A DNA stretch of 45,922 nucleotides. Source: Bacillota bacterium (GTDB lineage Bacteria; Bacillota; Clostridia; Christensenellales; QALW01). Where the stretch lies: NCBI GenBank assembly GCA_029007865.1, contig JAQXIQ010000148.1, positions 1 through 45,922 of the forward strand. The letters run 5' to 3'. The translations under genes and the position numbers were made by a program. The notes beneath the pieces are model-generated. The model was not told the DNA's origin, ran no database searches, and was given only the letters and a program-made list of their open reading frames with translations. This document shows positions 10,076 through 25,583 of this stretch, in pieces. Each line of letters starts with the position of its first letter. Position 1 is the stretch's first letter.

Positions 10076-12100
10076 TCACTGTTTTTTTACGGTATCTATA
10101 TAAACGCAGGCGGGAGAACCGCACATACCGTCCGCCGATAGGCGCACATACAGTTCCGCCCCATGAAGCTCTCCGTATGCGGTTACGGTAAGCGGAATAA
10201 CCTTTTCCTCACCCGGTGCCAGTACCACCGCATCAGCGACGGAAACGGAAATCCCCTCCGGCGCATTTATATCCGGATGCGCGCAGACCGTTTGCGAAGT
10301 GAAATTGCAGCATCCGAGCATGATTTCGGTGCTCCGGCCGCTTTCCAGCCGGTAACCCGTAGTGATGAGCTCTCCCTCGCCCTTTTTCGGGTCGGGAAAG
10401 AACGGAAATGTATCGGGCGGAAACACCGGTCTGACAAAAAGCCGGCACGGCAGAGGCAAGCTATGTGCGCAGGCGCGCCGCACCTTGGCGGCGTCACGGT
10501 TATAAAGCTGCTTTGGAATGCGGTTAAAGTGCACGAAGACCGGAGCCGCGCCTATATTGATGCTGAGTCCGTCCCTCCCGGGGCAAAGACATTTTTCTCC
10601 GCCGTTCATATCTGCCACAACTACAGGAAGCCGCACCGGAAGCTGCACGCTCACCGGCTCGTCGTTCCAGAGCATAAGCACCTCGTCCCCGCCGGTATCG
10701 AAGGCCACTCCCCTGACAGGGAGGGTTGTGCTTCCCAGAGCCTCTCCCTTTCCAAGCTGCGCGCATACCGCGCAAAGCGATATAAACGCCGGAAGCGGCT
10801 CATGCCCGGAGGTAAACATTCCGAACTCGGCATTGCACTCGCCGTACGCCGGGAGCATGAAGTGAAAGGTTCTCTCCACGCCGCAGAACGGGACAAGCGC
10901 CGACGCAGCGGACAGGTAAGCGGCATGCTGATACCATTGCGTCATCCTGTCATAGCCATCCGGATTTGTGATTATCGTGCCTGTCTCGGTAAGCCATGCC
11001 GCTTTGCCGCCCCATTTTTCGGCATTAAGCATGTGCTCTGACAGCACCGGCATATCCGGGGCGGGCACAGAATCTTTATCCGGGAAAACATAAGTGTGGA
11101 AATTGTACGCATCCGTATAATCCATTACGCCGTTTTTCATCATCCACGGCCCGTAAACGGAAAATTCCGGCGCGCGCGCATAGGCACCCGGCAATATCAG
11201 GGCCTCTGTACCGCTGTCCTTAAGCCCTATGGCAAAGGCCTTCATAAAGGCTGCGTATTCATCCGGCGTACCGCAGGAGAAATGGGTGACATCCTGCTCG
11301 TTCCATATCTCCCAGGCATCCACCGCTCCATCAAAATGCCTGCCTATTTCCCGGGCAAAGCTCCTGACGGCGCTCATGGAACTTACCGCAAGTCCGTCGC
11401 GGCAGCACAGCGCGGCGGGAATATCATGAAAGCAGACGGTAATTTTTATTCCCTCCGCTTTAATATAAGAAAAGGCTTCGTCGTAGTTCTCAAAAAGGTA
11501 TTGTATCCCGTCGTTATATATATCCGAAAGCCTTATTCTCTCCCTTGCCCACTTGACGCCCGACAGTCCAAGCAACCGCGCATAATCCCTCCTGTTTTCC
11601 GATTTTACATGCCATGCGGAGGCATGGTCTACGGCAAAGGGGCTGTCCGCCACTGCACATCTGTCCGTTTTGGCAACTATGCCGAAAAAGCAGCTTAGCG
11701 CATTGCCTTTTATAAAGACCTTACACTCATAATGCCCGGGGCCCATGCCGCATTGAGAAAAATCCAGCCGGAAGCAGTTACAGTCTCTGCTTATCTCCAG
11801 CCTTCCCTTGAATATTTCTCCGCTCAGGGTGTTTTTAATTCCGTATCTGATTTTGCCGTCGTTTACAGGCGCGGTAATGACGAAAACTAACGGTTCGCCC
11901 TCCGAAAATACCGACATATTTGCACAACTGCGCATCCCAAGCACCGCATTGGGCAGATGCTCCTGGTACAGCTTAGGCATGGGAACGCTTATGGGGCGCT
12001 CCTGCACGCTCATTATATTAGCTGCGCCGCTTGGGGCATCCGCCTCCTGCCGCGGTCTGTCTTTGTGCAGGGATACGGGATCAAAACCGCTGTATGACAT
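10076..12100 (-). CDS. Glycoside hydrolase, clan GH-A (GH39/GH5-like), no signal peptide
   Basis: GVKWARE, WEIWNEQD (acid/base), YNFHTY, WLTETG (nucleophile); GGAGG RBS. Confidence 0.8.
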   Translation of the reverse strand: MSYSGFDPVSLHKDRPRQEADAPSGAANIMSVQERPISVPMPKLYQEHLPNAVLGMRSCANMSVFSEGEPLVFVITAPVNDGKIRYGIKNTLSGEIFKGRLEISRDCNCFRLDFSQCGMGPGHYECKVFIKGNALSCFFGIVAKTDRCAVADSPFAVDHASAWHVKSENRRDYARLLGLSGVKWARERIRLSDIYNDGIQYLFENYDEAFSYIKAEGIKITVCFHDIPAALCCRDGLAVSSMSAVRSFAREIGRHFDGAVDAWEIWNEQDVTHFSCGTPDEYAAFMKAFAIGLKDSGTEALILPGAYARAPEFSVYGPWMMKNGVMDYTDAYNFHTYVFPDKDSVPAPDMPVLSEHMLNAEKWGGKAAWLTETGTIITNPDGYDRMTQWYQHAAYLSAASALVPFCGVERTFHFMLPAYGECNAEFGMFTSGHEPLPAFISLCAVCAQLGKGEALGSTTLPVRGVAFDTGGDEVLMLWNDEPVSVQLPVRLPVVVADMNGGEKCLCPGRDGLSINIGAAPVFVHFNRIPKQLYNRDAAKVRRACAHSLPLPCRLFVRPVFPPDTFPFFPDPKKGEGELITTGYRLESGRSTEIMLGCCNFTSQTVCAHPDINAPEGISVSVADAVVLAPGEEKVIPLTVTAYGELHGAELYVRLSADGMCGSPACVYIDTVKKQ

Positions 12101-12406: not shown

Positions 12407-12437
12407 AAAAACGCCGCGCATGCAGCGCGGCGTTTTT
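12407..12437 (-). terminator. Intrinsic terminator of the ABC operon
   Basis: AAAAACGCCGCGC-ATGCA-GCGCGGCGTTTTT. Confidence 0.85.
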
Positions 12438-12454: not shown

Positions 12455-13507
12455 TTAGCCCACCATACCGGAACGCTCAATTGACTGAACGAAGAACCTC
12501 TGGCAGAACACATACAGCACAACCAAGGGCAGTATGTGCATTATCAGCAGGGCTGCGTTATATACCTCGGTCAGAATAGAGTTGTTATCATAACCCAAAA
12601 CCTTCTGCACATAACCTGTAGCAGCGCTTGTTATCTTCATGGACAAAACATCTGCCTGCGGGTACAGTATGGAGAGATACGTCGTATCATTGTACTGCCA
12701 TACAAAGGCAAAGAGGAATACCGTGACCATTATGGGCAATGCACTGGGCAGCATTATCTGCCAGAAGGTGCGGAACGTGCCTGCACCGTCTATATAGGCA
12801 GCTTCCTCCAGCTCTTTGGGCTGATTGCGGAAATACTGACGCAGCATGAATATAAACAGTCCGTTTTTGAACATTACGCAGGTGGCGCTCATGATGATCA
12901 TGATGCTCCAGCCGGTAAGCTTTATTCCTCCGCCGCTCCTGGTGTTGAACATATCCGGAGTTATTGAAAACATCGTCAAAGGATTAAAGTTTGAAAAACG
13001 CATCTTCATGGCATCGGATATAAGCTGAATAGGCACCACAAGGGTGGCGATTACCAGGAAGAATACAAGGCCGTTACCCTTGAAACGGAACCTGGCAAGG
13101 CCGTAAGCCACCAGCGTACACGACGCCATCTGCAGCAGTCCCAGTCCCAAAGAGGACAGTACGGAACCCATAAACAGCTTGGGATACTTTACATAATTCC
13201 ACATGGCGGTGTAGTTTTCCAGCGTCAGACTTCTGGGAATAAAGATAACCGTCTGATCGTAAACGTCCTGAGCCGTTTTAAGCGAAGTGGAGAGCTGCAC
13301 GAGCAGAGGATACAGGATAAGCCAGCACAGTCCTATAAGCAGAACCCCTCTGATTATCCCCCAGATAACGCCCCTGGTCTTTTTTGACTTGAAGAACGCT
13401 TTTACCGCGGCCCAGCCCTTGAGCTTAATTACCTGAAAGGCATCTACCTCTTCGGCGCCGACCTGATTGACCTTTTTTTCAACCTTCTTTTTACTGAAAA
13501 GCCCCAT
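12455..13507 (-). CDS. Carbohydrate ABC transporter permease (MalG/UgpE type)
   Basis: PKELEEAAYIDGA EAA loop; QRFFVQSIERSG; AGGAGG RBS supports ATG 13507. Confidence 0.93.
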   Translation of the reverse strand: MGLFSKKKVEKKVNQVGAEEVDAFQVIKLKGWAAVKAFFKSKKTRGVIWGIIRGVLLIGLCWLILYPLLVQLSTSLKTAQDVYDQTVIFIPRSLTLENYTAMWNYVKYPKLFMGSVLSSLGLGLLQMASCTLVAYGLARFRFKGNGLVFFLVIATLVVPIQLISDAMKMRFSNFNPLTMFSITPDMFNTRSGGGIKLTGWSIMIIMSATCVMFKNGLFIFMLRQYFRNQPKELEEAAYIDGAGTFRTFWQIMLPSALPIMVTVFLFAFVWQYNDTTYLSILYPQADVLSMKITSAATGYVQKVLGYDNNSILTEVYNAALLIMHILPLVVLYVFCQRFFVQSIERSGMVG

Positions 13508-13511
13508 GTTC

Positions 13512-14741
13512 TCACCTCCTGCTCTTCTTAACGACTTCGTTTTCGTTATAGACAAACCTTGATATTATGGCTGCCACTATCACTATCAGCAATGCAGAGA
13601 CAAGGAAGTACAGCCAGCCCATTGCCATGCGTTCGGAAAGGCTGATGGACGTATTGCTTGCCGAATTGAACAAATAGCTTATCATCGGGTTGTTGGAACC
13701 TGTAAAAACATCGATCATGGTATACATTGTGGCAACCAGTATCATAGGCGATACCATGGGGAAGGTGATCTTCCAGAAAGCTTCCCACTTTGTGGCGCCC
13801 TCCATGTCCGAAGCCTCAAACAGAGAGGGAGATATGGTCTGCAGCGCAGCAAGGAAAATAAGTATCTGCACGCCGGAAAACAGAACTATGTTGGAAAGCT
13901 CGTTAAACGCGCCGGTAACAAAATCCACGAACGGGCTCATAAACTCTATTTCCGATAGAATGTTCTTTATTGATTCCACCATGTCAAGGTCGGTACCGCT
14001 CATGGCACCCGAAACACTGGAGCCGAATCTTGCAACCTCCCAGCTGCCTTCCTTTATCCTGGAAGCCACACCCGTAGCGGTTACAACAGGCATGAAGAAT
14101 ATAACTCTTGCAACAACTCTGCCGCGGAATTTGCTGTTAAGCACATTGGCTATCAGGAAGCTGAATACAAGTATCGCCGGTATATAGATAAGTCTGGGCA
14201 GGGTATTCTGCACGGCGGTAATATAATCACGCTTTTCGGTACATACGGTTTTGTAATTATCCAGTCCCACATAATTCAGCGTATCGCGGGTCTCTATGCT
14301 GGTCACGACCTTGCGCTGGCCGTTTTCCATTTCATAGATGACATTGCCGGAGGCGTCATAAGTTTTCTCGCCGGCATTGTTGAGTTTAAGCACCCAATAC
14401 TCCGGATTTGCGATCAGTCTTTCCGGCTCTCCGTCTTCTTTGTCGGCCGTCTGCATTACATATATCTTATTGCCCTCGGAATCGGTTTTGGGCTGGCCGT
14501 TTTCGTCCAGCTCCAAAACATAGCATTTTTCGCTGGGCTTTGCCGGGTTTACATATTCATACTGAGGCAAAAGCTCCGTGCACTGCGCCGTGCCCTGACT
14601 GTAGATACTGAGCATAAAAGATGTATACAGCGGAGAAAGAACAAAGAACAGGAAGCCCAGAAGAAACGGCAACACGAACAGCCATCCCGACAGGGAACGC
14701 TTTGTCATCAGATCCAGACCTTTTTTGCGCGGTTTGTACAT
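13512..14741 (-). CDS. Carbohydrate ABC transporter permease (MalF/UgpA type) with a ~100-aa extracellular insertion
   Basis: FVLPFLLGF; VGLDNY; LFEASDMEGATKWEAFWKITFP. Confidence 0.93.
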   Translation of the reverse strand: MYKPRKKGLDLMTKRSLSGWLFVLPFLLGFLFFVLSPLYTSFMLSIYSQGTAQCTELLPQYEYVNPAKPSEKCYVLELDENGQPKTDSEGNKIYVMQTADKEDGEPERLIANPEYWVLKLNNAGEKTYDASGNVIYEMENGQRKVVTSIETRDTLNYVGLDNYKTVCTEKRDYITAVQNTLPRLIYIPAILVFSFLIANVLNSKFRGRVVARVIFFMPVVTATGVASRIKEGSWEVARFGSSVSGAMSGTDLDMVESIKNILSEIEFMSPFVDFVTGAFNELSNIVLFSGVQILIFLAALQTISPSLFEASDMEGATKWEAFWKITFPMVSPMILVATMYTMIDVFTGSNNPMISYLFNSASNTSISLSERMAMGWLYFLVSALLIVIVAAIISRFVYNENEVVKKSRR

Positions 14742-14744
14742 TTA

Positions 14745-17528
14745 TCAGACCCCCTTAATAACGAGGTAGTCCCTTGCCGGAACAGTATATCCGTCTATTG
14801 AAACGGAAACCTCATCGTAATTGACATACACGATTGTGCCGTCGCTGTACTGCGTGCTGGTAAGAGTCTGGCTTATATTGTCATGCTTGACCATCGTCAA
14901 AGAAGCAGTATGCCCCAGCTCCTCATTGTAGCGGTTATAGAACTTTATGGCGTCATCTATCCATGCCGAATAATTTACCGAATATACATCCTCAAAATAC
15001 ACGTTGTTAATGTCCTTATTGGGAGCATACATCCAACGGTAAGCAATCCCGGCGCCGTACTCGACCGCCTTGAGCATACTTGTTGTGCTGTCACCGGACT
15101 GGTTGATGAACTCACCGGAATACTGTATGTAGCCATGGATAACAAGCTGATAGAACGGAACCGTTTCATCGGCCATATAGAATTCCGAACTCTGATTGGG
15201 CAGCTCGTATATAACATCGGTGCCGGCCAGAGTATACATATTGCCGCCAACCGTAGCTATGCTCACTCCGGCGTCGGAGAACATACCGTAAATATCGGTA
15301 TAAATCTGCTGAACCTCATTACGGTCCACAAGCGCGCCGACATGATAATCCCCGGTAAGCATATTGCCTATGGCTCCCAGCGAAACAGCGCTTATCTTGT
15401 TGCTCTGAAGGTTTTTAAGCAGGCTTTCCGAAACCGACTGAACCTTCTGAGGCTTGGTGATAAATGCCTGGTGCATATAATACTTGGTCTGCATCAGATT
15501 GTACTGATAATACATCGCATTGGAACGGGACAGCATACGCGACGCATCCAGGAATTTCATATAGTCATCAAACAGCTTATCGGTATAAACCAGAAGCACT
15601 TCGCATTCGGGATAGAGCGCTATTCCGTTATCCTGGGCATACTGCTGCAGGTCGCGGTAATCGCCCCAGCCTCCCAGCTCATTAAGCGGTCTGACGGAGC
15701 TGTATACCTGGTTGAGCAGTCCGTTATTGGACCAGCCTCTGTAGCGGACATTGATACCCTTGACACCGCTTTCGGTAAGTTTCTTAAGTATCTCCTGCGC
15801 CTCGTTGTAGGTTGTAAGGCTGTTCAGATAATCGTACTGAATGCCCATAAAGGCGCCGGTATCCGACATCGCCCCGAGCAGCTCCAGGTTAAAGTTAATG
15901 TCGTTTCCGGAGATCTGCCTGTCTTTGAGCAGGCCTTTACTTATCAGATACTCTCTGTAATAAGCCGCCATATCGGCATAATCGAGATCGCCGGGTAATA
16001 TTGTGTACTTAATGGCGATATCGCCGGAATACTTTTTCTCCTGATAGGTCTTAAGAGTGCTGCTTGCACCGAAAAGCGCCATATCGTCAAATTCCGAGAG
16101 ACGGTAGGAAGAATAAGTATAATTCAGGGTGTTGTTCTGTCCTCTGGGAACATCGCTGACGACGCTTGCAACCGCCTCGCCGTCCTCAATGATGGAAAAC
16201 AGCGTACTGTTCTGCTTCTTTATAGCCCATATCGGCAGGTATCCCTGCTCGGAATACTCCGGCTGAGTGGAATAGTCCTTGCCGCGGTCTATGCCGTATA
16301 TCTGAACCTTTAACGGATCGCTTATAGCTATCTTGCCGTTGTTGAAGTTTATCAGCGCTCCGCTTCCGTCGGGAGTAAGCATATAGCCTTTTTCCTGCTG
16401 GTCGGCGCTGCCGAAATACTTGAGCACATCCAGGTATGCAATGCAGTATTTGCTCTCATTGAACATTATCTCGTCATTCTTGATGCACACCTTAAGGCCG
16501 TCTTCCTCAAGAATATAATCAAGAGGAATCATAAACAGGTTGGTGCTGACATCAGCAACATCGTATTCGGAATGCCAGTAGTCGCGAAGCGCCACCATAT
16601 CCGGGAAATCCGGATACTCATCCTTATGGCCCTGGTAATCGTAGCCGAACTGTTCTCCGCCCTCATACCACATCGTAAAGACATTCTTGAACATATTTCC
16701 GTTAACGTCTTTAAGGCTTTGTATGAGAACCGCGACTTCTTCGCCTTCTTCAAGATTTTTCAGCTTGGGAGATATTTTATCGTACTCTTCCTTGGCGGTA
16801 TCGGTTAATTTGTCGTAAGTATCCTTGGTAAAGATCTTGTAAGCGTTTTTGATGGCTGCATAGTTTACGTTATACAGCACGCCCCATTTATCTTTTTTCT
16901 CATCATTGGACAAGCCGTTCAGTTCGTTGTTGTAAAAGGTTGTGGCAAGCTCCAGCATCTCGTCAAAAACCTGCTTGGGCATTATGGTGGGTATTTTGTA
17001 ATCGGTCTGGAAATTTCCGATTACATATTTGACCCTGAGGCCGCCCTCGTCATTATAGGTCAGGTAAAAAGGCATTATTTTGGAGCCCTGCTCGACCGCC
17101 TTTTCATACATTAGGATGCAGTTTGTATAGCTGTTCAGATCCATCTGACTGGAAGAGGTTTTATCGTTATACCTGATCTGTATCTGGCTCATCATTTCGC
17201 CGGCTTTTCCGCTGGCGTCTATAACGCTCTGCGTCGGATTGGAAAACCAGGTTTCTCCGCTGGCCTTGTGAACCAACACTATATCCAGCCGCTGTTTGTT
17301 CAGGTACAGCTCGTAAGAGCTGTTTTCCTGCACAAGATAGTAATCGACGGTGCTGCCGTTGCCCATATCCCGGTGATAAATAATGTCCTCGCTGAGCTTG
17401 TACTCCTCAAGACCGGTATATTTGTCCTCGGGAATGAACCACTCTTCAACGGCCTTTTGTACACAACCGGAGAACATACTCAGCGCCATAAGCAGAACAA
17501 GGGCAATAACCGTAAGTTTTTTTGTCAT
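14745..17528 (-). CDS. DUF5696-like large lipoprotein
   Basis: Lipobox MFSG-C; WFSNP, GYMLTPDGSGALI, YRGW, VPFYQLVIHGYI, YSDGTIVYVNY motifs; canonical position in NHL-Yip1 ABC clusters. Confidence 0.75.
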   Translation of the reverse strand: MTKKLTVIALVLLMALSMFSGCVQKAVEEWFIPEDKYTGLEEYKLSEDIIYHRDMGNGSTVDYYLVQENSSYELYLNKQRLDIVLVHKASGETWFSNPTQSVIDASGKAGEMMSQIQIRYNDKTSSSQMDLNSYTNCILMYEKAVEQGSKIMPFYLTYNDEGGLRVKYVIGNFQTDYKIPTIMPKQVFDEMLELATTFYNNELNGLSNDEKKDKWGVLYNVNYAAIKNAYKIFTKDTYDKLTDTAKEEYDKISPKLKNLEEGEEVAVLIQSLKDVNGNMFKNVFTMWYEGGEQFGYDYQGHKDEYPDFPDMVALRDYWHSEYDVADVSTNLFMIPLDYILEEDGLKVCIKNDEIMFNESKYCIAYLDVLKYFGSADQQEKGYMLTPDGSGALINFNNGKIAISDPLKVQIYGIDRGKDYSTQPEYSEQGYLPIWAIKKQNSTLFSIIEDGEAVASVVSDVPRGQNNTLNYTYSSYRLSEFDDMALFGASSTLKTYQEKKYSGDIAIKYTILPGDLDYADMAAYYREYLISKGLLKDRQISGNDINFNLELLGAMSDTGAFMGIQYDYLNSLTTYNEAQEILKKLTESGVKGINVRYRGWSNNGLLNQVYSSVRPLNELGGWGDYRDLQQYAQDNGIALYPECEVLLVYTDKLFDDYMKFLDASRMLSRSNAMYYQYNLMQTKYYMHQAFITKPQKVQSVSESLLKNLQSNKISAVSLGAIGNMLTGDYHVGALVDRNEVQQIYTDIYGMFSDAGVSIATVGGNMYTLAGTDVIYELPNQSSEFYMADETVPFYQLVIHGYIQYSGEFINQSGDSTTSMLKAVEYGAGIAYRWMYAPNKDINNVYFEDVYSVNYSAWIDDAIKFYNRYNEELGHTASLTMVKHDNISQTLTSTQYSDGTIVYVNYDEVSVSIDGYTVPARDYLVIKGV

Positions 17529-17543
17529 CTCATTTCCCTCCTG

Positions 17544-18197
17544 TTAATAACGCATGGTAACTTCCCGATATATTGTATAAACAACGCCGAATATCTGCTG
17601 CAGCAGGAAGAAAAACAGCATGCCTATAAACATTATCAGTGCCATACCCAATGCAATGCATATAATGGCAAATATTGTTCCTATTGCTCCGTACTGATGG
17701 GTTACCATCGTGCCGCAGTACAGCAGCAAGCCGGTCCAGAAAATACCCAGGAAATTAAGGAATGTAAATATCGTGCCCTCGTCCACCGTCATGAACTGTG
17801 AAAGAACGGTCAGCGCCAGGGTGAAGATAATGTACGGCATCAGAGAATAGGCCGTATAATGGAATATATCCTTAACACTTCCTTCGCCGTTAAACAGCGT
17901 GGTTATACCCCAGTTTGAATAGCACCACAGCAGCACTATCAGTATGAACACTCCGGCGTCACTGAAAACGTTGATGTTCTCCGGCCGCACGGCAAATGTA
18001 TTGAACGAATAGGCTGCAAACTGCTTGAAAATAAGCCCCGCAATTACAAACAATATATAAAGTGTAACGGATACCGCCATGCGGGCCTTTTTATCGTGCT
18101 TGAGCTCCCAGAAGCCCTTGAAGGGATGCAGCATGCAATAAAAGACATATCTGAAATCACTGAAATATTGCTTCAGCGCGGCTTTCACCTTACTCAT
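17544..18197 (-). CDS. Yip1-family membrane protein
   Basis: HPFKGFWELK, NWGITTLFNGEG, AYSLMP, THQY; ~5 TM. Confidence 0.8.
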   Translation of the reverse strand: MSKVKAALKQYFSDFRYVFYCMLHPFKGFWELKHDKKARMAVSVTLYILFVIAGLIFKQFAAYSFNTFAVRPENINVFSDAGVFILIVLLWCYSNWGITTLFNGEGSVKDIFHYTAYSLMPYIIFTLALTVLSQFMTVDEGTIFTFLNFLGIFWTGLLLYCGTMVTHQYGAIGTIFAIICIALGMALIMFIGMLFFFLLQQIFGVVYTIYREVTMRY

Positions 18198-20106
18198 CGC
18201 CTTTACCTCCAGTCTTTATAAAGCGTCTGATCTTTTTGAATATCGCCTTGCCTACAAAGAACACAACCAGTACCACAATGCCGGTCATTATATAAGGCAT
18301 TGCCACTTCCATGCGTTCATTGCGAAGCTTTGCATACGCCTCGGCATATTCGCTCTGATTATAAGCGCGCATAAAGTTCTCGCACGCCGACTCGTATTCT
18401 CCGCGGACATACTGAATTCTTCCGATCCCGGTATAAGCCAGTCTGGAATTGGACGCCTGATCCAGTACCTGTTCCCAGAGTCTTACCGCCTCGTCATACT
18501 CTCTGTTCTGCTGACACATCGTAGCGCGGCGTATGAGCTTACCGTATTCGGTAGGCTTGAACAACGTTATACGCGCCGTTTTGGAATCCAGTACGGCAAT
18601 GATCATCTGCGTGTAGGTTTCCGCCTCTTCATCGTCCGGAGCTATAATACCGTCCTCCACGGCGGCAAAAGTCAGGATGTTGATTGCGGCCGGTTCGGCA
18701 AAAGCGCCCTCTGCGCTTCCCTTGGCTCCGAATATAAAGAGCAGTTCGCCGGAGTTATTATAAGTAAATATCCTGCCCTTCTCGCTATCAAGGGCGCTGT
18801 AGATTCCGTCGGACGCAACCGCAATGTCCACCATTTTGGAGAACTCGCTGCGCTCCTGGTAATAACCGAGGTCGCCGGACGGCGGATACACGTCATTACG
18901 CACGAGGATATCCGAGCCGGTAGGAGCGATTCTTTTTATTGCCGCACCTATCTCGGACTTGCTGTTGAAGTGGCTGAACAGATCAGCCGCTTCCAGCGCA
19001 TTTATTGTACCGAATATCATTCCGTCAGCGTCCAGGCAAACATTGCTGTATTCCGTTGAAAGATTCAGCTTGGAGCCTGCTTTCTGCTCATCGGTCAGTA
19101 TCCTGCGCAGCAGTGTCGAGAGTGTCTGCTTAACCTTTGTAGCGCCTGTAAACTTTGTGAACGAGCCGTCGGAGCTAAGCTCGATAAGGCCCTTATGGTT
19201 TCCCTTGGAAACGACATACATGGTGCCTCCGTCCGAAACAACCACCTTTATGGGCTTATACTTTCCGCCGGTGGTGTTGTCTCCAGAAGTGTTGCCTTCA
19301 CCGGTTTCGCCCCCTTCGGTTTCGCCTTCGCCGGACTCACCTTCGCCTGCCTCGCCCTCCTGCTCCGTATCGGAACCGTTGTCGGCGTCAGCGGACTGGT
19401 CGGTATCGCCCGTATTATTCTGATCCGTGTCGGTATCTCCGGAAGGCTCATCTGTAGCACCGGGATCTGTTACTGTTGCGTTTTCGTCCTCTGCATTGAG
19501 CAATTCATCCAGCCCCGCAGGCTTGTTGAAGATCATATCGCAGGCATACTGGCCGGACTCGTCCAGGGTAAACCTTACGATACGTCCGTTGCCGGTATCG
19601 CAGACATAGAGCTGGCCGGCATTGTTGAATGTCAAGCCCTCCGGGCTTGAAAGACGGTATCTCTGACCGTTATACATAAACCCGGTTATGTCTGTAGTTT
19701 CCTGGGTATACTGAAGATTGCCGTTTTCGTCAAGCAAGGGCTCGCCGTTCTCGTCCACCACCAACACCGTTTTTACGGATTCCATTTTGGTGGAAATGTA
19801 TTGCTTGAGCTGGTACTTCTTGTCGATAATAATTATGCGGCTGTTTCCGGTATCCGCTATGGCAATATCTCCGTTGACCGTGGATGCTGCCATATCAGAC
19901 GGATTGAGCATGCCCTGGCTGTTCTCCCCCGTCTGGACGCCCATTGTAACGGCGTCGATTATTTTATACGGAGTATAAGCCTGCGGCTCGGCGGTGACCC
20001 AACCCTTATTGAAATTGTAGTTCTGGTACGGGGCCGCGAATGCAGTTGCGGTAAACATGCAGCATATAAGCGCAATCGCAACTCCGGTCAATAACTTTTT
20101 AATCAT
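18190..20106 (-). CDS. NHL-repeat beta-propeller/TPR protein with signal peptide and C-terminal TM anchor
   Basis: IADTGNSRI, LYVCDTGNGRI repeats; TPR-like WEQVLDQASNSRLAYTGIG; terminal TM plus basic tail. Confidence 0.85.
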   Translation of the reverse strand: MIKKLLTGVAIALICCMFTATAFAAPYQNYNFNKGWVTAEPQAYTPYKIIDAVTMGVQTGENSQGMLNPSDMAASTVNGDIAIADTGNSRIIIIDKKYQLKQYISTKMESVKTVLVVDENGEPLLDENGNLQYTQETTDITGFMYNGQRYRLSSPEGLTFNNAGQLYVCDTGNGRIVRFTLDESGQYACDMIFNKPAGLDELLNAEDENATVTDPGATDEPSGDTDTDQNNTGDTDQSADADNGSDTEQEGEAGEGESGEGETEGGETGEGNTSGDNTTGGKYKPIKVVVSDGGTMYVVSKGNHKGLIELSSDGSFTKFTGATKVKQTLSTLLRRILTDEQKAGSKLNLSTEYSNVCLDADGMIFGTINALEAADLFSHFNSKSEIGAAIKRIAPTGSDILVRNDVYPPSGDLGYYQERSEFSKMVDIAVASDGIYSALDSEKGRIFTYNNSGELLFIFGAKGSAEGAFAEPAAINILTFAAVEDGIIAPDDEEAETYTQMIIAVLDSKTARITLFKPTEYGKLIRRATMCQQNREYDEAVRLWEQVLDQASNSRLAYTGIGRIQYVRGEYESACENFMRAYNQSEYAEAYAKLRNERMEVAMPYIMTGIVVLVVFFVGKAIFKKIRRFIKTGGKGDE

Positions 20107-20123
20107 TTTATCCGCTTGCCTCC

Positions 20124-20981
20124 TTAATCCTTCATTCCCGAGGTAGCCATGGTCTCGATAATGTTGCTCTGCGAAATGACGAACATTATTATCGGAACCG
20201 ACATCATAACCACTGTTACGGCGTTACCCACGCCTGCACGCGCTATGCCGACAGATATGATCTGCTGCAGCGCGTAGGACAGAGTCTTAAGGCTCTCGGA
20301 CTGAATATAGATGGATGCACCCATATTCCACAGTCCCTGTACGGCGAATATCATAAGTGTAAGCCATGCGCTTTTGATATTGGGCATTACTATGGACCAG
20401 AATACTCTGAGATGACTTGCGCCGTCAACCCGTGCGGCTTCCACAACTGCCATCGGTATCTGGGTCATAAAGCTTCTGATAAGGTGCAGGCCCAGTGCCG
20501 AAGCAAAGACGGGAACTATAAGTGCCCACTGGCTGTCGACAAAGCCCAAGGAAGACATTATCATATATGACGGTATCCACAGCACCGCTCCGTTGAACAT
20601 AAGAGCAAGCTCTATCATCTTTGTGATGAAGCGGTTTCCGGGGAAGCGATGCAGCGCCAGCGCAAAAGCGCACAGCGAGCAGCATATTATCTGGCCTATT
20701 GTACCGACGCCGGTAATGAATATGGTATTGAAGAAATACCGGGTAAACGGCACCCATGAGGTATTCATCAGCACGAACAGGTCGGAGTAATTCTTTGTGG
20801 TCCAGTTCTGCGGGAAGATTGTAGGCGGAAACCTGAACAGCTCATCTGTAGGTTTGAAGGAGCTGCCTATTGCAAAAAGCATGGGCAGAACCATAAACGC
20901 GCCGATCAGAACAAGGAACAGCACGGTGGCGATGTCGCCGCCCAGCGAACGGTTGACTTTTTTCTTTCTTATACGAGCCAT
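20124..20981 (-). CDS. Carbohydrate ABC transporter permease (MalG type)
   Basis: VEAARVDGAS EAA loop; SFKP..ELF.FPP. Confidence 0.93.
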   Translation of the reverse strand: MARIRKKKVNRSLGGDIATVLFLVLIGAFMVLPMLFAIGSSFKPTDELFRFPPTIFPQNWTTKNYSDLFVLMNTSWVPFTRYFFNTIFITGVGTIGQIICCSLCAFALALHRFPGNRFITKMIELALMFNGAVLWIPSYMIMSSLGFVDSQWALIVPVFASALGLHLIRSFMTQIPMAVVEAARVDGASHLRVFWSIVMPNIKSAWLTLMIFAVQGLWNMGASIYIQSESLKTLSYALQQIISVGIARAGVGNAVTVVMMSVPIIMFVISQSNIIETMATSGMKD

Positions 20982-20983
20982 TA

Positions 20984-21934
20984 TCAGTCACCCACCTTGC
21001 TTATGATCTTTTGTGCCAGCTTATTGCACACTATCATCAGGAAGAACAGCAGCGTAGCCAGCGCACAGGCATAGCCCATTTCCATACGGGATCCGCCGTA
21101 ATCCTGGATATGCAGGATAAGTGTATGCGCTACATAGTCCTGCGTGGGATAACCCGCAAGCGCCGTTATCTGATCGCCGACCGAGAAAGCGCCGGTAATA
21201 CTCATTATTGCGCTGAAGAGCATCTGAGGACGCATATACGGAAGGGTGACGTACCAAAGCTCCTGCCAACGGTTTTTAACGCCGTCCAGCGCAGCAGCCT
21301 CATACAGCGTTTTGTCAACATTCTGCAAACCTGCGATAAATGTAAGGAAGGATACGCCCAGCGACGACCATAGCATCACTATGATCACGCACGGGACTAT
21401 ATAAGTCGTGTCCTCCAGCCAACGTATGTTCTGCGTTATCAGCCCCAGCTTGAGCAGGTTACCGTTTAAGTAGCCGTACGTATCGGATGAGAATATCAGC
21501 TTCCACACGACGTATACGTTAGCCAGCGTCGGCGCGTAGTATATCAGCGTCATAAGCGCCCTTACTTTGGGCGACAGCTCGTTGATCAGCCATGCAAAGA
21601 ACAGAGAAAGAATATATCCGCCCGGCCCCAGTATCACGGCAAAGAGCATGGTATTCTTTAAGGCGGTCATGAACAGATCGTCCGCAATAAACATTCTGGT
21701 GTAGTTATCCCAGAAAATAAACTTGGGAGCCTCCAGAATATTGAAGTATGTAAAGCCGTAGTATATTGCGGTTATGACCGGCAAAACCGTCAGAGTAATA
21801 AACACCAGCATAAACGGCAGCATGAATAAATACAGAATTTTGTTCTTCCATGCTTCCTTAAGCTTGGTTTTCATATAGTGCCCAAGAAAGCTCTGCTGCT
21901 TGGGCGCTGACTGTGCCTGCATTTCGTTTGTCAT
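20984..21934 (-). CDS. Carbohydrate ABC transporter permease (MalF type)
   Basis: LYEAAALDGVKNRWQELWYVTLP; MGYACA. Confidence 0.93.
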   Translation of the reverse strand: MTNEMQAQSAPKQQSFLGHYMKTKLKEAWKNKILYLFMLPFMLVFITLTVLPVITAIYYGFTYFNILEAPKFIFWDNYTRMFIADDLFMTALKNTMLFAVILGPGGYILSLFFAWLINELSPKVRALMTLIYYAPTLANVYVVWKLIFSSDTYGYLNGNLLKLGLITQNIRWLEDTTYIVPCVIIVMLWSSLGVSFLTFIAGLQNVDKTLYEAAALDGVKNRWQELWYVTLPYMRPQMLFSAIMSITGAFSVGDQITALAGYPTQDYVAHTLILHIQDYGGSRMEMGYACALATLLFFLMIVCNKLAQKIISKVGD

Positions 21935-21946
21935 CCTCTTCCCTCC

Positions 21947-24900
21947 TTACCACAAATCCTTGTTATCAAGTTTATCTTTAAACTCGTCTCTCTTACGGGC
22001 AATCTCATCGTTAACGATCTTGGAATACTCAAGCAGCACAAGGTTGCTGTCGGAGTTTGTATTGATAACTTCCTTCCATGCGAACTCGACATTCCTGCCC
22101 ATATAATAGGAGCCGGGAACTTCGGGAATTCCTACAACATAATTCCATTGATCCTTGATGGCTTCAAGCGATTTTTTGTCCCACGGAAGCTGCTCCACGG
22201 CGGCCATATTGGCTGTCTGGTAACGCGCCGCGCTGCCCAGCAAGCTCTCTATCTCGCGCCCGAACAGAGCCTGAGCCTCCGTTCCCGTCCACCAAGCCAT
22301 AAACCTCCAGGCATTTTCCCTGTTTTTGCAGGTGGACATCATAATGCAGGCGGTAACGCTTCCGGCTGTGGAGTAATCAATGGTACCGTCCTCTTTAACG
22401 GTGCCGGGAACCTTCTTGAACTCCCACAGGCCGTCTATTTCGGGAGCGAAGACGCTCAGCAGATTGTATGAGCTGTATCCCGCTATGGACACCGGGATCT
22501 CACCGGAACGGAAGCGGTTTGCAAAGTCATAGGAGTTGGGCAGACGGTTAACGGTAAAGAGGTTGGTCCACATCTTGAAGGCGTCCAGCGCCTCATCGGA
22601 ATCAAGATTTCCGGTTATTCCGTCATATTCGTACTCATCGCTCATTTTATAGATGGTACCGCCGCGCTGATAGAGCAGGGTGGCATACAGATTCAGCGTT
22701 CCGCCCACAACACCCAGTGCCGGGACCGGCATACCGAAGTTCATGCTCTTGTTCTGCAGCAGCGGGAGCAACTTGTAAATATCGTCCCAGGTATTAAGCT
22801 GGGTATCCGGATCCACGCCAAGCTCCTCAAGAATATCCGTTCTGTAATAAAGCATGGGGAAATCCTGCGTTTCCGGGAGTCCGTATACGCCGGTACGGAA
22901 GCGAAGCGGGGTAAGCGCGCTCTCATGGAACTGAGCAAAGACTTCGTCCCGTCCCTCGAAAGACTCATCGTTGAGGTTTACCACCGCGCCGCGCAGCGCA
23001 TAGTTAACCGCGTCGCTGGAGCCTCTGGTAAGGCAGACATCGGGGCCGTTGCCCGCAAGGGTCGCAGGCAGCAGCGCGCCGGAAGCCACCAGCTTGAGGT
23101 TTATGGCTATATTATACTGAACGGTAAAGCGAGAGTCTATGATCTGCTTAAGAACATTGGCGTTATCGCGGTTGCCGGCGTTTCCCGCGCCCGTCTCAAC
23201 CCAAACATTTACCGGCTCCTCGTCCCCTTCAACGGTAACGGAGCCGATGGTGTCATAATCCTCTGTAAAGGATGCAATAAAGGAGGAAATCTCATGCCAC
23301 AGCCTATCAAAGAAGCCGGCATCGCCTGCCGGAAGCTCACGCTCCGGAGCGCAGATGATAATATAATCCATCTGAAGCGGCTGCTCACGCATATCGTTGA
23401 TCCAGGTGCCAAGAGCGGCGATATTGTCTTTAAGGTCGGCGAAGCGCTCCTTGAGGGTATCCATCCTTCTTTCGATATCGTCCAGGATGAGTATCAGCTT
23501 TCTGATGATGCTTGACTGCTCGTTTGCCTTGCCGTCATAGGCATCCTTGACCTGCTGCTCAATATCCTTGAGGTTTTCGTTCTCCTGACGGAATATGCTA
23601 AGTGCCTCGGTGGCCACCTTATCAAACTGGTAATCGCGGTTAATATCAGGATCGGCACCGGTGAGCATCAGTATCTGGCGATAAGCGACATTGAGCTGAG
23701 AAAGGCTCTGCTCCGCCTGTCTGAGCGTATCGCTCAGGTCACCCAGGGTCACATCAAGGCGCAGCGTGTGTACGCCCTTGTCAAAATAGAACATCATGTA
23801 TTCGCTGCCGTCGTTACCGGCACCTACCGCATACATCTTGTAACCGGTGGAATAACCGAACTTGAGATCCTGAGTCTCGCTGCACACCTCTTTGCCGTCA
23901 AGAAGCATGCGTCTGTGAGCGTTTGCACCGCCCACAACATTCTGCTTTGCCTTAAAGGCTATCTTATAGAGTCCGGCCTCTTTGACCTCAAAAGACCACT
24001 CCATCCAGGAGCCGACATTCTGCCACTTGTCGCCGCCTATGGAGTTAAGGCGGATCTTGCTGGCATGGTAAGGCTCCATGCTGGGGGTGGAACGGTCGCC
24101 TATGGCATAAAGCGTCGGGTCGCTTTTATCGGAAGGATCCTCTGCCTGGATCTTTATAAACGTATCGTCGTTATCCTGTACGGGCGCATATCCTTTGGCC
24201 TCATATTCTTCCTGCAGCTGGCTGTAGGATTTGACCTCGTCCCTCTGATATATAACAACCTGAGATATGGCAAAGCTTTCGCTGATGGGCGAAAAGGCTA
24301 TTATATGCTCTCCCTTTGTAAGATAGAAGGAAAGCGGCTCGGAATAATATCCGAGATAATCCCGGAGCTCTCCGACCTGCCATGCTTCCTTCTCTATCTG
24401 GAAGGGTCTGAGGTCGTTATTGGTTTTTTCGTCGCGCTGAACGGGGGTCTCATTTTTCCACTGACGGGAAAACTGAACCTGCCTTGCGTCATAAAACGGC
24501 AGCTGTCCGTCAATATATACAGCTCTGGAGACAGACGACCCCTTGGATGTATATTCAATGACGCTGCTGCCGGTTTCCACCTTAAAGCTGGTAAAGTTAT
24601 AATAGTTTACCCGCACATTATACAGCCCGTCCTGAGGAACGGTGACCTTCCATGCGATAATTTTATCGTCTGAGGAGAGCACCGCCTCAATTCCGCCGAA
24701 GTTGCCCGTAGGCATCTTTTCGTCGCTTATGCTGAAATCCGAGTTAAGCACCAGATGCTCGTCATAAGGCAGGACGATATTCACATCCGGACGTGCCGCC
24801 CCGGCATACTGCGCCAGATATTCATTATATTCTTTATGATCCGCTTTGTTAACGGTGCCGGTGCTGCCGGTATCGGTATTACCGGTCTGCTCCTCGTTTT

Positions 24901-25018
24901 CGATGCCGGTACCCCCGGAGCCTGTGTTGTCTCCGTCGGCAAAGGCACTGAGTCCAAGCATCGATACGGCCATGAAGACAGTAAGCAGTGCTGCCAGCAG
25001 CTTTTTCCCGATAGCCAT
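21947..25018 (-). CDS. Large (~1020 aa) extracellular solute-binding protein with N-terminal beta-sandwich (CBM-like) domains
   Basis: Sec signal peptide (..LSAFA) without lipobox; C-terminal SBP family 1 motifs (LAGNGPDV, YGLPETQDFPMLYYRTDI, AWRFMAWW); GGAGG RBS supports ATG 25018. Confidence 0.88.
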   Translation of the reverse strand: MAIGKKLLAALLTVFMAVSMLGLSAFADGDNTGSGGTGIENEEQTGNTDTGSTGTVNKADHKEYNEYLAQYAGAARPDVNIVLPYDEHLVLNSDFSISDEKMPTGNFGGIEAVLSSDDKIIAWKVTVPQDGLYNVRVNYYNFTSFKVETGSSVIEYTSKGSSVSRAVYIDGQLPFYDARQVQFSRQWKNETPVQRDEKTNNDLRPFQIEKEAWQVGELRDYLGYYSEPLSFYLTKGEHIIAFSPISESFAISQVVIYQRDEVKSYSQLQEEYEAKGYAPVQDNDDTFIKIQAEDPSDKSDPTLYAIGDRSTPSMEPYHASKIRLNSIGGDKWQNVGSWMEWSFEVKEAGLYKIAFKAKQNVVGGANAHRRMLLDGKEVCSETQDLKFGYSTGYKMYAVGAGNDGSEYMMFYFDKGVHTLRLDVTLGDLSDTLRQAEQSLSQLNVAYRQILMLTGADPDINRDYQFDKVATEALSIFRQENENLKDIEQQVKDAYDGKANEQSSIIRKLILILDDIERRMDTLKERFADLKDNIAALGTWINDMREQPLQMDYIIICAPERELPAGDAGFFDRLWHEISSFIASFTEDYDTIGSVTVEGDEEPVNVWVETGAGNAGNRDNANVLKQIIDSRFTVQYNIAINLKLVASGALLPATLAGNGPDVCLTRGSSDAVNYALRGAVVNLNDESFEGRDEVFAQFHESALTPLRFRTGVYGLPETQDFPMLYYRTDILEELGVDPDTQLNTWDDIYKLLPLLQNKSMNFGMPVPALGVVGGTLNLYATLLYQRGGTIYKMSDEYEYDGITGNLDSDEALDAFKMWTNLFTVNRLPNSYDFANRFRSGEIPVSIAGYSSYNLLSVFAPEIDGLWEFKKVPGTVKEDGTIDYSTAGSVTACIMMSTCKNRENAWRFMAWWTGTEAQALFGREIESLLGSAARYQTANMAAVEQLPWDKKSLEAIKDQWNYVVGIPEVPGSYYMGRNVEFAWKEVINTNSDSNLVLLEYSKIVNDEIARKRDEFKDKLDNKDLW

Positions 25019-25161: not shown

Positions 25162-25191
25162 ATCATAATTCATTTACCCCCTGAATGTCAA
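25162..25191 (-). promoter_or_regulatory. Sigma-A promoter of the ABC operon
   Basis: TTGACA-N18-TATGAT. Confidence 0.6.
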
Positions 25192-25279: not shown

Positions 25280-25583
25280 TATTGTTAACATTTCCGCGCG
25301 GTGCTTCCCGGGCATCTGTACGCATTCGTGCATATTAGTGCGATGATTACAAGTATTTTTGTTCACAATACATAACAGACAGCACAGAATATACCTTTTC
25401 ACCTCAGAATCCCCTTTTGCCCGAAAAACAAGCTCAACGGGTTATTATAATGCTAACATGAGTTAAAATAAGCAATTTGATTATTTGCCTCCTGCCTATA
25501 TAATAAAGATATGCACCGGAAGCTCAACGCATGTCCGGTACAAATAAACATCTGAAAGCTCCCGACGGGACACGGTGCAACCA

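What the first reader, a model, noticed from the sequence alone, without database searches (positions are those of the whole stretch)
12455..25018. Eight-gene double-permease glycan-import machine with giant SBP, NHL/TPR, Yip1 and DUF5696 subunits
Seen: eight tightly packed co-oriented genes under one promoter and one terminator. They encode two MalF/MalG-type permease pairs, only one SBP (about twice the normal size, no lipobox), no ATPase, and three non-ABC genes between the permease pairs (TM-anchored NHL propeller/TPR, Yip1-like membrane protein, 927-aa lipoprotein). Known: CUT1 importers in Firmicutes can share an MsmX/MsmK-type ATPase encoded elsewhere, and this gene order recurs in Bacilli and Clostridia, but I know of no mechanistic description of the accessory subunits. 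Inference: a Gram-positive surface 'utilisome' in which two ABC channels are scaffolded by Yip1/NHL-TPR, and the DUF5696 lipoprotein binds or cleaves the glycan for the second permease pair. Best candidate for an undescribed system in this window.
Basis: partly seen in the sequence, partly recalled or inferred. Interest (0 to 1): 0.78.

Follow-up and report, generated by a model that had tools for sequence, protein, structure and literature searches.

The report
Conserved double sugar-importer cassette with pseudo-enzyme
A pig-gut Clostridium carries a tightly conserved eight-gene set that joins two sugar-uptake channels to three undescribed helper proteins, one of them an enzyme look-alike that has lost its catalytic residues, and nothing like it turned up in the papers searched.

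Summary
Eight co-oriented minus-strand genes (12455-25018) encode a 1023-aa solute-binding protein (SBP), two permease pairs, an NHL/TPR protein, a Yip1 protein and a DUF5696 lipoprotein.

- **Conservation:** this is one copy of a widespread Clostridial cassette. All 53 full-length DUF5696 loci examined keep the gene set wherever the contig allows.
- **Fusion:** NHL/TPR and Yip1 form a single ORF in 25 of 53 loci.
- **DUF5696:** it has a GH129 fold (Z 30.5 to DagB). The window's copy has Ala719 and Val760 where cytoplasmic relatives keep Asp and Glu, so it more likely binds than cleaves.
- **Giant SBP:** two beta-sandwich modules (one matching a carbohydrate-binding region), a helical bundle and an oligosaccharide SBP domain.
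- **Co-divergence:** the giant SBP tracks the first permease pair and DUF5696 the second.
- **Yip1 docking on the second pair:** weak support only (0.51 against 0.11 for the best control).
- **"Only one SBP":** true at this locus only. 27 of 52 loci add normal SBPs, and this genome holds nine orphan lipoprotein SBPs.
- **Other genome facts:** these four permeases are its only detected CUT1-type (sugar-importer class) permeases, and there is one MalK-type ATPase elsewhere.

The anatomy is shown; the mechanism is inferred. No description was found in the papers searched.

The parts
25162..25191 (-). Best sigma-70-like promoter site (TTGACA-18-TATGAT), about 145 nt upstream of the first start codon
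   Evidence: It is a consensus match only; hit counts for the region are close to shuffled controls.
21947..25018 (-). Giant solute-binding protein (1023 aa). Layout: N-terminal hydrophobic helix without lipobox, disordered linker, two beta-sandwich modules (81-257, 288-424), helical bundle (428-544), CUT1-type SBP fold (548-1017).
   Evidence: Pfam SBP_bac_1 at residues 622-917. Model pLDDT 86.9. Profile against PDB: oligosaccharide SBP 5ysb E 1.4e-33, and a CITase segment 5x7g E 3.6e-11 on the second sandwich. Foldseek matches the SBP domain only.
20984..21934 (-). Permease P2 (316 aa), MalF/UgpA-type, with an EAA loop
   Evidence: BPD_transp_1 E 2.2e-13. UgpA is the best NCBIfam match, below cut-off. 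Sequence.
20124..20981 (-). Permease P3 (285 aa), MalG/UgpE-type, with an EAA loop
18190..20106 (-). NHL beta-propeller + TPR protein (638 aa). It has an N-terminal signal-like segment, an acidic low-complexity insert at about 200-290, a TPR region at about 520-590 and a C-terminal TM helix at about 601-620.
   Evidence: Pfam NHL E 3.2e-15. Profile against PDB: PknD-type NHL propellers and consensus TPR proteins. Hydrophobic segments. Fused to Yip1 in 25 of 53 loci.
17544..18197 (-). Yip1-family multi-pass membrane protein (217 aa). Its start overlaps the NHL/TPR stop by 8 nt.
   Evidence: Pfam Yip1 E 6.8e-14. It is the only Yip1 hit in the genome. Complex prediction with P7+P8: 0.51 against 0.11 for the best control, weak support.
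14745..17528 (-). DUF5696 lipoprotein (927 aa) with a GH129-like three-domain fold. Ala719 and Val760 sit at the nucleophile and acid/base columns; Asp787 is kept.
   Evidence: Pfam E 3.6e-167. Model pLDDT 89.3. DagB 5opq Z 30.5 and NagBb 5wzr Z 30.2. Profile against PDB E 4e-18. Catalytic columns.
13512..14741 (-). Permease P7 (409 aa), MalF-type, with an EAA loop. A lineage-specific extracytoplasmic insert of about 130 aa follows TM1.
   Evidence: Orthologues are mostly 290-310 aa.
12455..13507 (-). Permease P8 (350 aa from the ATG at 13507; 366 aa if the TTG at 13555 is used), MalG-type, with an EAA loop and a basic N-terminal extension
   Evidence: The start choice follows the RBS-like AGGGGAGAA before the ATG, read from the translation and sequence.
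12411..12428 (-). Intrinsic-terminator-like hairpin with a T-run, directly after the P8 stop
   Evidence: 7 pairs, 5 of them G-C.

Best explanation
This is one copy of a widespread, strictly syntenic Clostridial cassette that builds two CUT1-type ABC sugar importers together with a fixed accessory module.

Importer 1 is P2/P3, fed by the giant SBP. Its two beta-sandwich modules are inferred to hold a polymeric or large glycan at the cell surface, while its C-terminal oligosaccharide-binding domain delivers ligand to the channel.

Importer 2 is P7/P8. It is fed by ordinary lipoprotein SBPs. These lie next to the cassette in about half of the loci. In this genome they are nine orphan genes on other contigs.

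DUF5696 accompanies importer 2. It is a surface-anchored protein with a GH129 glycosidase fold. This copy has lost the nucleophile and the acid/base, so it most likely acts as a non-catalytic glycan-binding or docking subunit.

The NHL propeller, TPR region and Yip1 membrane domain are one functional unit, either split or fused. It sits in the membrane and is inferred to organise the assembly, probably beside P7/P8.

Both channels are inferred to be powered by the genome's single MalK/UgpC-type ATPase, which is encoded elsewhere.

Shown: gene content, synteny, folds, the missing catalytic residues, co-divergence. Inferred: physical supercomplex, roles of the accessory proteins, substrate.
For: Anatomy.

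Synteny:
- 62 loci were analysed (L001, 60 fetched regions, the window). 53 have a DUF5696 ORF of 650 aa or more.
- 40 of these show the exact order with a crude ORF caller.
- 7 more were rescued as ORF-caller artefacts.
- 3 are cut by contig ends, 1 has an insertion in DUF5696, and 2 have P3 displaced downstream.
- None lacks a component where the DNA is present.

Reverse check:
- The giant-SBP N-half occurs in 87 of 399 Clostridia genomes.
- These include all 78 genomes whose DUF5696 hit scores below 1e-100.
- The two hits lie 6-8 kb apart on the same contig.

Fusion: NHL/TPR-Yip1 is fused in 25 of 53 loci and split in 28.

DUF5696 fold: profile E 4e-18 to DagB. Foldseek E 4.9e-29. Z 30.5, rmsd 4.1 A, 587 aligned.

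Catalytic columns:
- 5 of 5 short cytoplasmic homologues keep D/E/D.
- The window has A719/V760/D787.
- Spacing is 41 residues, against 43 between NagBb D435 and E478.
- Of 49 cassette proteins, 13 have the beta4 Asp, 15 have the beta5 acid, 3 have all three and 26 have neither of the first two.
- Of the 150 best library representatives, 16 have both and 53 have neither. Control column P791 is intact in 150 of 150.

Giant SBP.

Co-divergence over 41 loci, as partial correlations:
- P2-P3 0.55 and P7-P8 0.41 (known partner pairs).
- SBP-P2 0.31 and SBP-P3 0.34, against SBP-P7 -0.02 and SBP-P8 0.08.
- DUF-P7 0.39 and DUF-P8 0.25, against DUF-P2 -0.19 and DUF-P3 -0.27.
- DUF-NHL 0.42.

Yip1 with P7+P8:
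- ipSAE 0.51 (runs 0.49, 0.51, 0.59); best of 3 controls 0.11.
- The tool's verdict is weak support. The mark was reached by 58 of 80 solved complexes and 2 of 110 mismatched pairs.
- At 0.60 or under it was reached by only 7 of those 80 and by both mismatches.
- Runs agree in at least 70% of contacts. Partner pLDDT is at least 72.

ATPase: one OB_MalK hit in the genome, UgpC/MalK-type.

Orphan SBPs: nine lipobox-bearing SBP_bac_1/8 genes have no adjacent permease. The four window permeases are the only CUT1-like ones detected.

Precedent: the Yip1-family protein YknW modulates assembly of the YknXYZ ABC transporter (PMC4887032, passages read).
Against: - No physical interaction is shown. The single complex test is only 'weak support', which by the tool's own calibration is more often wrong than right without a strong prior.
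- The partial correlations largely follow gene adjacency, so recombination between paralogous cassettes could produce them without any contacts. Related loci are also not independent.
- The catalytic-residue mapping rests on sequence alignments: HMMER to a GH13 region II at E 0.0054 and MAFFT --add. No residue-level superposition was made.
- DagB itself does not keep NagBb's acid/base (PMC5698469), so non-canonical catalysis is possible. Asp787 is kept in 142 of 150 representatives.
- A minority of cassette proteins keep both carboxylates (3 of 49; 16 of 150) and may be real enzymes.
- The picture of many SBPs feeding few permeases is not general. G326 has 48 BPD_transp_1 hits to 16 SBP_bac_1, G006 47 to 17, G110 19 to 9, G193 14 to 5 and G033 8 to 2.
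- The genome is 91.8% complete in 153 contigs, so further permeases or ATPases could be missing.
- Expression evidence is weak. Only short contigs in four RNA libraries cover parts of the operon, and DNA carry-over is not excluded.
Confidence: 0.55

Rival explanations
1. This is a plain Gram-positive polysaccharide-utilisation locus. Two ordinary, independent ABC importers and some surface proteins are kept together only for co-regulation. There is no supercomplex and no direct role of the accessory proteins in transport.
For: About half of the loci carry their own second SBP next to P7/P8, as two separate importers would. Flanking genes are typical CAZymes and regulators that vary from locus to locus: GH10, GH3, GH43, GH30, GH20, pectinesterase, sulfatase, LacI, AraC. 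The only interface test is weak.
Against: Co-regulation alone rarely fixes gene content and order across 53 of 53 loci and several paralogues per genome while the flanks change freely. All seven components co-diverge, with r between 0.76 and 0.90. A membrane protein (Yip1) fused to a surface propeller/TPR, and a GH fold without catalytic residues, have no obvious free-standing job in a PUL.
Confidence: 0.22
2. DUF5696 in this operon is an active surface exo-glycosidase that uses non-canonical catalytic residues. It trims captured glycans to products that P7/P8 import.
For: The GH129 fold is matched at Z 30. DagB and NagBb already differ in their catalytic residues (PMC5698469). Asp787 and the PDGSG motif are strongly conserved. 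The short cytoplasmic homologues look like real enzymes.
Against: The nucleophile column is Asp in only 13 of 49 and 46 of 150 long-form proteins, and is Ala in the window. The acid/base column is Val in the window. No acidic barrel residue is invariant across the cassette family. One enzyme specificity also fits poorly with paralogous cassettes sitting next to very different CAZymes.
Confidence: 0.15
3. The NHL/TPR-Yip1 unit is a sensor or regulator of the transporter, comparable to the PknD-type NHL sensor domain, rather than a structural scaffold. Alternatively the cassette recycles the cell's own envelope glycans rather than foraging for nutrients.
For: The closest solved NHL domains include the PknD extracellular sensor. 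No substrate has been identified. The upstream (816 aa) and downstream (674 aa) neighbours have no family.
Against: No cytoplasmic signalling domain is attached to Yip1 in either the split or the fused form. Flanking genes in other loci are plant- and host-glycan CAZymes.
Confidence: 0.08

Closest known systems
CUT1 (carbohydrate uptake transporter 1) ABC importers with a shared MsmX/MsmK-type ATPase, e.g. MalEFGK2 and the Bacillus subtilis MsmX-dependent systems (the sharing is recalled, not from a call)
   Same: Both have two BPD_transp_1 permeases with EAA loops per channel, an SBP_bac_1 binding protein and a MalK/UgpC-type ATPase encoded outside the operon.
   Different: Here two permease pairs are locked in one cassette. 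The SBP is about twice normal size, with two extra beta-sandwich modules and a helical bundle. Three non-ABC genes always lie between the pairs. None of this appears in the 2026 review of glycoside transporters, where a term search for CBM, accessory, DUF and NHL gave 0 occurrences (PMC13543919).
GH129 glycosidases: DagB (ZGAL_3152, PDB 5OPQ/8RZK) and NagBb (PDB 5WZN)
   Same: Both share the three-domain architecture of N-terminal beta-sandwich, (beta/alpha)8 barrel and C-terminal beta-sandwich. Z is 30.5 and 30.2, and the profile E-value is 4e-18.
   Different: The window protein has Ala and Val where NagBb has D435 and E478. It is a surface lipoprotein encoded inside a transporter operon. 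It matches Pfam DUF5696, and no GH129 model appeared at E up to 0.01.
YknW of the Bacillus YknWXYZ transporter
   Same: Both are Yip1-family membrane proteins encoded with an ABC transporter. YknW is reported to modulate assembly of that transporter (PMC4887032).
   Different: YknXYZ is a MacB-type exporter with a membrane-fusion protein. Here the partner is a type I importer, and Yip1 is coupled or fused to an extracytoplasmic NHL propeller and TPR.
SusC/SusD-type utilisomes of Bacteroidota (comparison from general knowledge)
   Same: Both are repeated, paralogous cassettes that sit next to varied CAZyme genes and combine glycan capture at the surface with import.
   Different: There is no homology. 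The cell is monoderm, import is ABC-driven rather than TonB-dependent, and no complex has been demonstrated.
Orphan SBPs sharing one translocator, e.g. AdcAII with AdcCB in Enterococcus faecalis (PMC8966984, search listing only)
   Same: This genome has nine lipoprotein SBP genes without their own permeases, and only one CUT1 permease locus was detected.
   Different: The known case is a metal system with one extra SBP. Here the count is nine sugar-type SBPs. Sharing is inferred from gene counts in a 92%-complete genome, and the pattern is not seen in five other cassette-bearing genomes.

Membership tests
CUT1-type ABC importer (TC 3.A.1.1) | Two BPD_transp_1 membrane subunits per channel, each with an EAA coupling loop | tested here: met
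   All four permeases hit PF00528 above its cut-off. The EAA-like loops are read from the translations. UgpA/UgpE/MalF/MalG are the best NCBIfam matches, all below the equivalog cut-offs.
CUT1-type ABC importer (TC 3.A.1.1) | Extracytoplasmic SBP of the SBP_bac_1 type | tested here: met
   PF01547 E 1.7e-20 at residues 622-917. PDB profile hit 5ysb E 1.4e-33. Foldseek TMt 0.72-0.77 to oligosaccharide SBPs.
CUT1-type ABC importer (TC 3.A.1.1) | MalK/MsmX-type ATPase with a C-terminal OB/TOBE domain | tested here: met
   It is not in the operon. One OB_MalK hit lies in the genome at C100, is UgpC/MalK-like and is cut by the contig end. That it serves this operon is inferred.
CUT1-type ABC importer (TC 3.A.1.1) | Demonstrated sugar import | not testable with these tools
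   This needs uptake assays.
GH129 (CAZy) glycoside hydrolase | Three-domain fold: N beta-sandwich, (beta/alpha)8 barrel, C beta-sandwich | tested here: met
   VIA-align Z 30.5 (5opq_D, rmsd 4.1, 587 aligned) and Z 30.2 (5wzr_A). The next tier is at Z about 20.
GH129 (CAZy) glycoside hydrolase | Catalytic Asp nucleophile at the end of beta4 (NagBb D435, DagB D486) | tested here: not met
   The window has Ala719 in the column where 5 of 5 short homologues have Asp. The test is by sequence alignment, not by superposition.
GH129 (CAZy) glycoside hydrolase | Acid/base Glu (NagBb E478) | tested here: not met
   The window has Val760 in the column where 5 of 5 short homologues have Glu. Spacing is 41 against 43 residues.
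Pfam DUF5696 (PF18952) | Match above the gathering score | tested here: met
   558 bits against a cut-off of 25.6, covering profile positions 19-612.
Yip1 family (PF04893) | Match above the gathering score, multi-pass membrane protein | tested here: met
   52.5 bits against a cut-off of 28.6.
NHL-repeat beta-propeller plus TPR | NHL repeats forming a propeller, followed by TPR helices | tested here: met
   NHL scores 55.8 bits against a cut-off of 20. Single TPR Pfam models stay below their cut-offs. The family profile hits PknD-type propellers and consensus TPR proteins at E 1e-30 to 1e-78.
CBM35-like carbohydrate-binding module (in the giant SBP) | Beta-sandwich homologous to a characterised CBM | tested here: inconclusive
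   Profile positions 273-400 hit residues 400-520 of cycloisomaltooligosaccharide glucanotransferase 5x7g at E 3.6e-11. That this segment is a CBM35 is recalled, not shown by a call. No binding residues were checked.
Bacterial lipoprotein (DUF5696) | Lipobox with Cys after an N-terminal signal sequence | tested here: met
   MFSGC ends at residue 22, found by a regular expression whose pattern is recalled. The giant SBP has none.

The most novel reading that the evidence does not exclude
The cassette is a Gram-positive counterpart of the Sus-type utilisome: a membrane supercomplex of two ABC channels. A CBM-bearing giant SBP serves the first channel. A catalytically dead GH129-fold protein acts as glycan receptor or gate on the second. 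An NHL-TPR-Yip1 scaffold holds them together. In this small pig-gut genome the complex is the single hub through which ten different SBPs, one giant and nine orphan lipoproteins, deliver all ABC-imported sugars.
Probability: 0.3. Interest if true: 0.85.

Novelty: new variant of a known kind. Interest (0 to 1): 0.7.

Why it matters
- **Prevalence:** the cassette occurs in roughly a fifth of the sampled Clostridia genomes (78 to 87 of about 400), often in two or three copies.
- **Family size:** the DUF5696 family has 4306 cluster representatives at E up to 1e-30 in a library of 1.84 billion proteins.
- **Gap in the literature:** no paper in the library searched mentions DUF5696.
- **If the parts work together:** sugar uptake in many gut and rumen Firmicutes would rely on an ABC importer architecture with obligatory non-ABC subunits, which current models of Gram-positive glycan foraging do not include.
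- **Pseudo-enzyme case:** a glycosidase fold recruited into a transporter, with active-looking cytoplasmic relatives available for direct comparison, is a clean test case for pseudo-enzyme evolution.
- **Annotation use:** the strict synteny gives a ready marker for glycan-uptake loci in Clostridia.

Tried and rejected
- **The search for related loci** with the single DUF5696 protein returned only one locus, L001. Synteny was therefore surveyed through the genome search and the fetch from genomes.
- **A first iterative HMM script** timed out and was replaced by plain phmmer.
- **phmmer of the single DUF5696 protein against PDB** found nothing. Only the family profile did.
- **DN674** had no PDB, Pfam or NCBIfam match. 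The atlas gave only leads to GH5/GH39-like clusters.
- **A multi-SBP hub as a general property of the cassette** was rejected. Five other carriers have ordinary permease-to-SBP ratios.
- **DUF5696 with P7/P8** could not be sent to complex prediction, because together they exceed 1000 residues.
- **Rows dropped before the synteny count of 53**: L042 (DUF5696 interrupted by a stop, other genes present), L064 (DUF5696 not labelled by my ORF caller, not followed up), and the seven short-form regions L084-L090.
- **Parts of the operon without RNA-library cover** carry no weight.

Full report
**1. Observation**

The window lies on contig C148 of a 2.0-Mb genome in 153 contigs, 91.8% complete. It belongs to a sporulating Clostridium, with SpoIIE at 5789-8107.

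Near-identical DNA occurs mostly in pig-gut metagenomes (12 studies hold the stretch or a part).

The minus strand between 25018 and 12455 carries eight tightly packed genes:
- a 1023-aa SBP
- two BPD_transp_1 permeases (316 and 285 aa)
- a 638-aa NHL/TPR protein
- a 217-aa Yip1 protein
- a 927-aa DUF5696 protein
- two more permeases (409 aa, and 350 aa from the ATG at 13507)

Pfam and NCBIfam confirm each assignment. All four permeases carry EAA-type loops, read from the translations, so both pairs should couple to a MalK-type ATPase.

The strongest promoter-like site (25191-25162) and the strongest terminator-like hairpin (12428-12411) bracket the set. Such consensus hits are barely enriched over shuffles, so one transcript is plausible but not shown.

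Short contigs from four RNA libraries of three studies, many at 99% identity or more, lie on most of the genes and bridge two gene junctions. This is only a weak hint of expression.

**2. The cassette is conserved**

PF18952 is found above its cut-off in 115 of 400 sampled genomes of the class. By my reading of that table, 78 genomes have a hit below 1e-100.

I fetched 60 regions around hits that I chose from that list: the best full-length hits, up to three per genome, plus seven short-form hits. I analysed them together with L001 and the window.

Of 53 loci with a DUF5696 ORF of 650 aa or more:
- 40 show the exact order SBP-P2-P3-NHL/TPR-(Yip1)-DUF5696-P7-P8
- 7 more were ORF-caller artefacts and hold all genes
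- 3 are cut by contig ends
- 1 has an insertion inside DUF5696
- 2 have P3 moved downstream

None lacks a component where DNA is present.

In the reverse direction, the N-terminal half of the giant SBP is found in 87 of 399 genomes. These include all 78 genomes above, and the hit lies 6-8 kb from the DUF5696 hit. The nine extra genomes have partial or no DUF5696 hits and are mostly fragmented.

Flanking genes vary freely. I scanned 26 of 41 upstream and 30 of 39 first-downstream genes and found LacI, AraC, GH10, GH3, GH43, GH30, GH20, pectinesterase, sulfatase and others.

NHL/TPR and Yip1 are one fused ORF in 25 of 53 loci and split in 28. This argues that they act as one unit.

**3. DUF5696**

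The family profile hits the GH129-like 3,6-anhydro-D-galactosidase DagB (E 4e-18) and the GH129 enzyme NagBb (E 2.5e-8).

The AlphaFold model (pLDDT 89.3) matches them best:
- Foldseek E 4.9e-29
- Z 30.5 and 30.2, against about 20 for GH36, GH13 and GH101

DagB needs Asp202, Asp486 and Glu517. NagBb uses D435 and E478 (PMC5698469, passages read).

A profile of the barrel region aligns its beta4 segment with GH13 region II.

Five short (about 570-aa) cytoplasmic DUF5696 homologues, which lack signal peptides and ABC neighbours, all keep Asp (beta4), Glu (beta5) and a third Asp.

The window protein has Ala719, Val760 and Asp787 in those columns.

| Sample | beta4 Asp | beta5 acid | both | neither |
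|---|---|---|---|---|
| 49 cassette proteins | 13 | 15 | 5 (3 also keep the third acid) | 26 |
| 150 best library representatives | 46 | 67 | 16 | 53 |

In the 150-protein set a control column is intact in 150 of 150.

The cassette form is therefore mostly, and here certainly by this alignment, without the canonical catalytic pair. I read it as a binding or docking module. A minority may still be enzymes.

**4. Giant SBP**

The model (pLDDT 86.9) shows, in order:
- an N-terminal helix
- a disordered linker
- two beta-sandwiches
- a helical bundle
- a CUT1 SBP fold

The SBP part resembles oligosaccharide binders. The second sandwich hits a segment of CITase at E 3.6e-11. I recall that segment as a CBM35.

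**5. Who goes with whom**

Distance matrices of the seven components over 41 complete loci correlate at 0.76-0.90.

After removing the shared background, the partial correlations are:
- known partners stand out: P2-P3 0.55, P7-P8 0.41
- the giant SBP pairs with P2/P3 (0.31, 0.34) and not with P7/P8 (-0.02, 0.08)
- DUF5696 pairs with P7/P8 (0.39, 0.25) and not with P2/P3 (-0.19, -0.27)
- DUF5696 also pairs with NHL (0.42) and with the SBP (0.43)

Gene adjacency and recombination could explain part of this.

Yip1 folded with P7+P8 scored 0.51 against 0.11 for the best control, which the tool rates as weak support.

**6. Genome context**

- The genome has one MalK/UgpC-type ATPase, on C100.
- Thirteen BPD_transp_1 hits were found. 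Only the four in the window were detected with the CUT1-type permease queries. Two of the others lie in loci scanned here: Pot-like (C78) and NMT1-type (C22). The rest were not classified.
- Nine SBP_bac_1/8 genes of 470-570 aa have lipoboxes and Pro/Thr-rich linkers and lie without permease neighbours. Four of them are in a row beside a GH36/31-like gene.
- In 27 of 52 other loci, normal SBP genes (up to four) sit beside the cassette.
- The excess of SBPs over permeases is not seen in five other carriers.

**7. Literature**

- 'DUF5696' gave 0 papers.
- Searches combining Yip1, NHL, ABC transporter and polysaccharide utilisation gave nothing relevant.
- A 2026 review of glycoside transporters contains none of the terms CBM, accessory, DUF, MsmK or NHL.
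- The nearest precedent for a Yip1 subunit is YknW.
- Supplementary files were not consulted.

**8. Verdict**

This is a new variant of a known kind, a CUT1 importer with an obligatory and undescribed accessory module. The mechanism remains inferred.

Noticed in passing
window 10076-12100 (-): A 674-aa cytoplasmic ORF lies directly downstream of the operon, behind its own promoter-like site (12292-12264). It has no Pfam, NCBIfam or PDB sequence match. It carries WEIWNEQD and WLTETG motifs that recall clan GH-A hydrolases (recalled). A 664-aa homologue sits at the same place in L001. The atlas gives only GH5/GH39-like leads.
   Followed up: partly
window 25575-28025 (+): A divergently oriented 816-aa ORF without a signal peptide has no Pfam or NCBIfam match. 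Its function is unknown.
   Followed up: partly
G000 contigs C76 (4383-11674), C42, C43, C54, C110, C115 (loci L094-L099): Nine orphan lipoprotein SBP_bac_1/8 genes have no adjacent permeases. Four lie in a row next to a GH36/GH31-like gene. The window holds the only CUT1-like permeases detected in this genome.
   Followed up: yes
L084, L085, L088, L089, L090 (short DUF5696 ORFs of 563-608 aa): A cytoplasmic short form of DUF5696 covers profile positions of about 190-612. It has an intact Asp/Glu/Asp set and no ABC neighbours. It is probably an uncharacterised active glycosidase family related to GH129.
   Followed up: partly
L072 (G040:C1), between about 5984 and 8746: The DUF5696 gene is split by an insertion that carries two opposite-strand ORFs (263 and 498 aa), possibly a mobile element. 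The rest of the cassette is intact.
   Followed up: no
L078 and L080 (two genomes of one genus): P3 is absent from its usual place and lies downstream, after P8 and a normal SBP gene. This is a rearranged but complete cassette.
   Followed up: partly
window 18190-20106, residues about 200-290 of the NHL/TPR protein: An acidic, Gly/Asp/Glu/Thr-rich low-complexity insert makes this protein about 140 aa longer than most split-form orthologues. The window's DUF5696 (helical insert at about 185-330) and P7 (loop of about 130 aa) are also enlarged, as in L001.
   Followed up: no
L042 (G327:C13): DUF5696 is interrupted by one in-frame TAA, giving ORFs of 291 and 444 aa, while all the other cassette genes are present. 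This could be a pseudogene or an assembly error.
   Followed up: no
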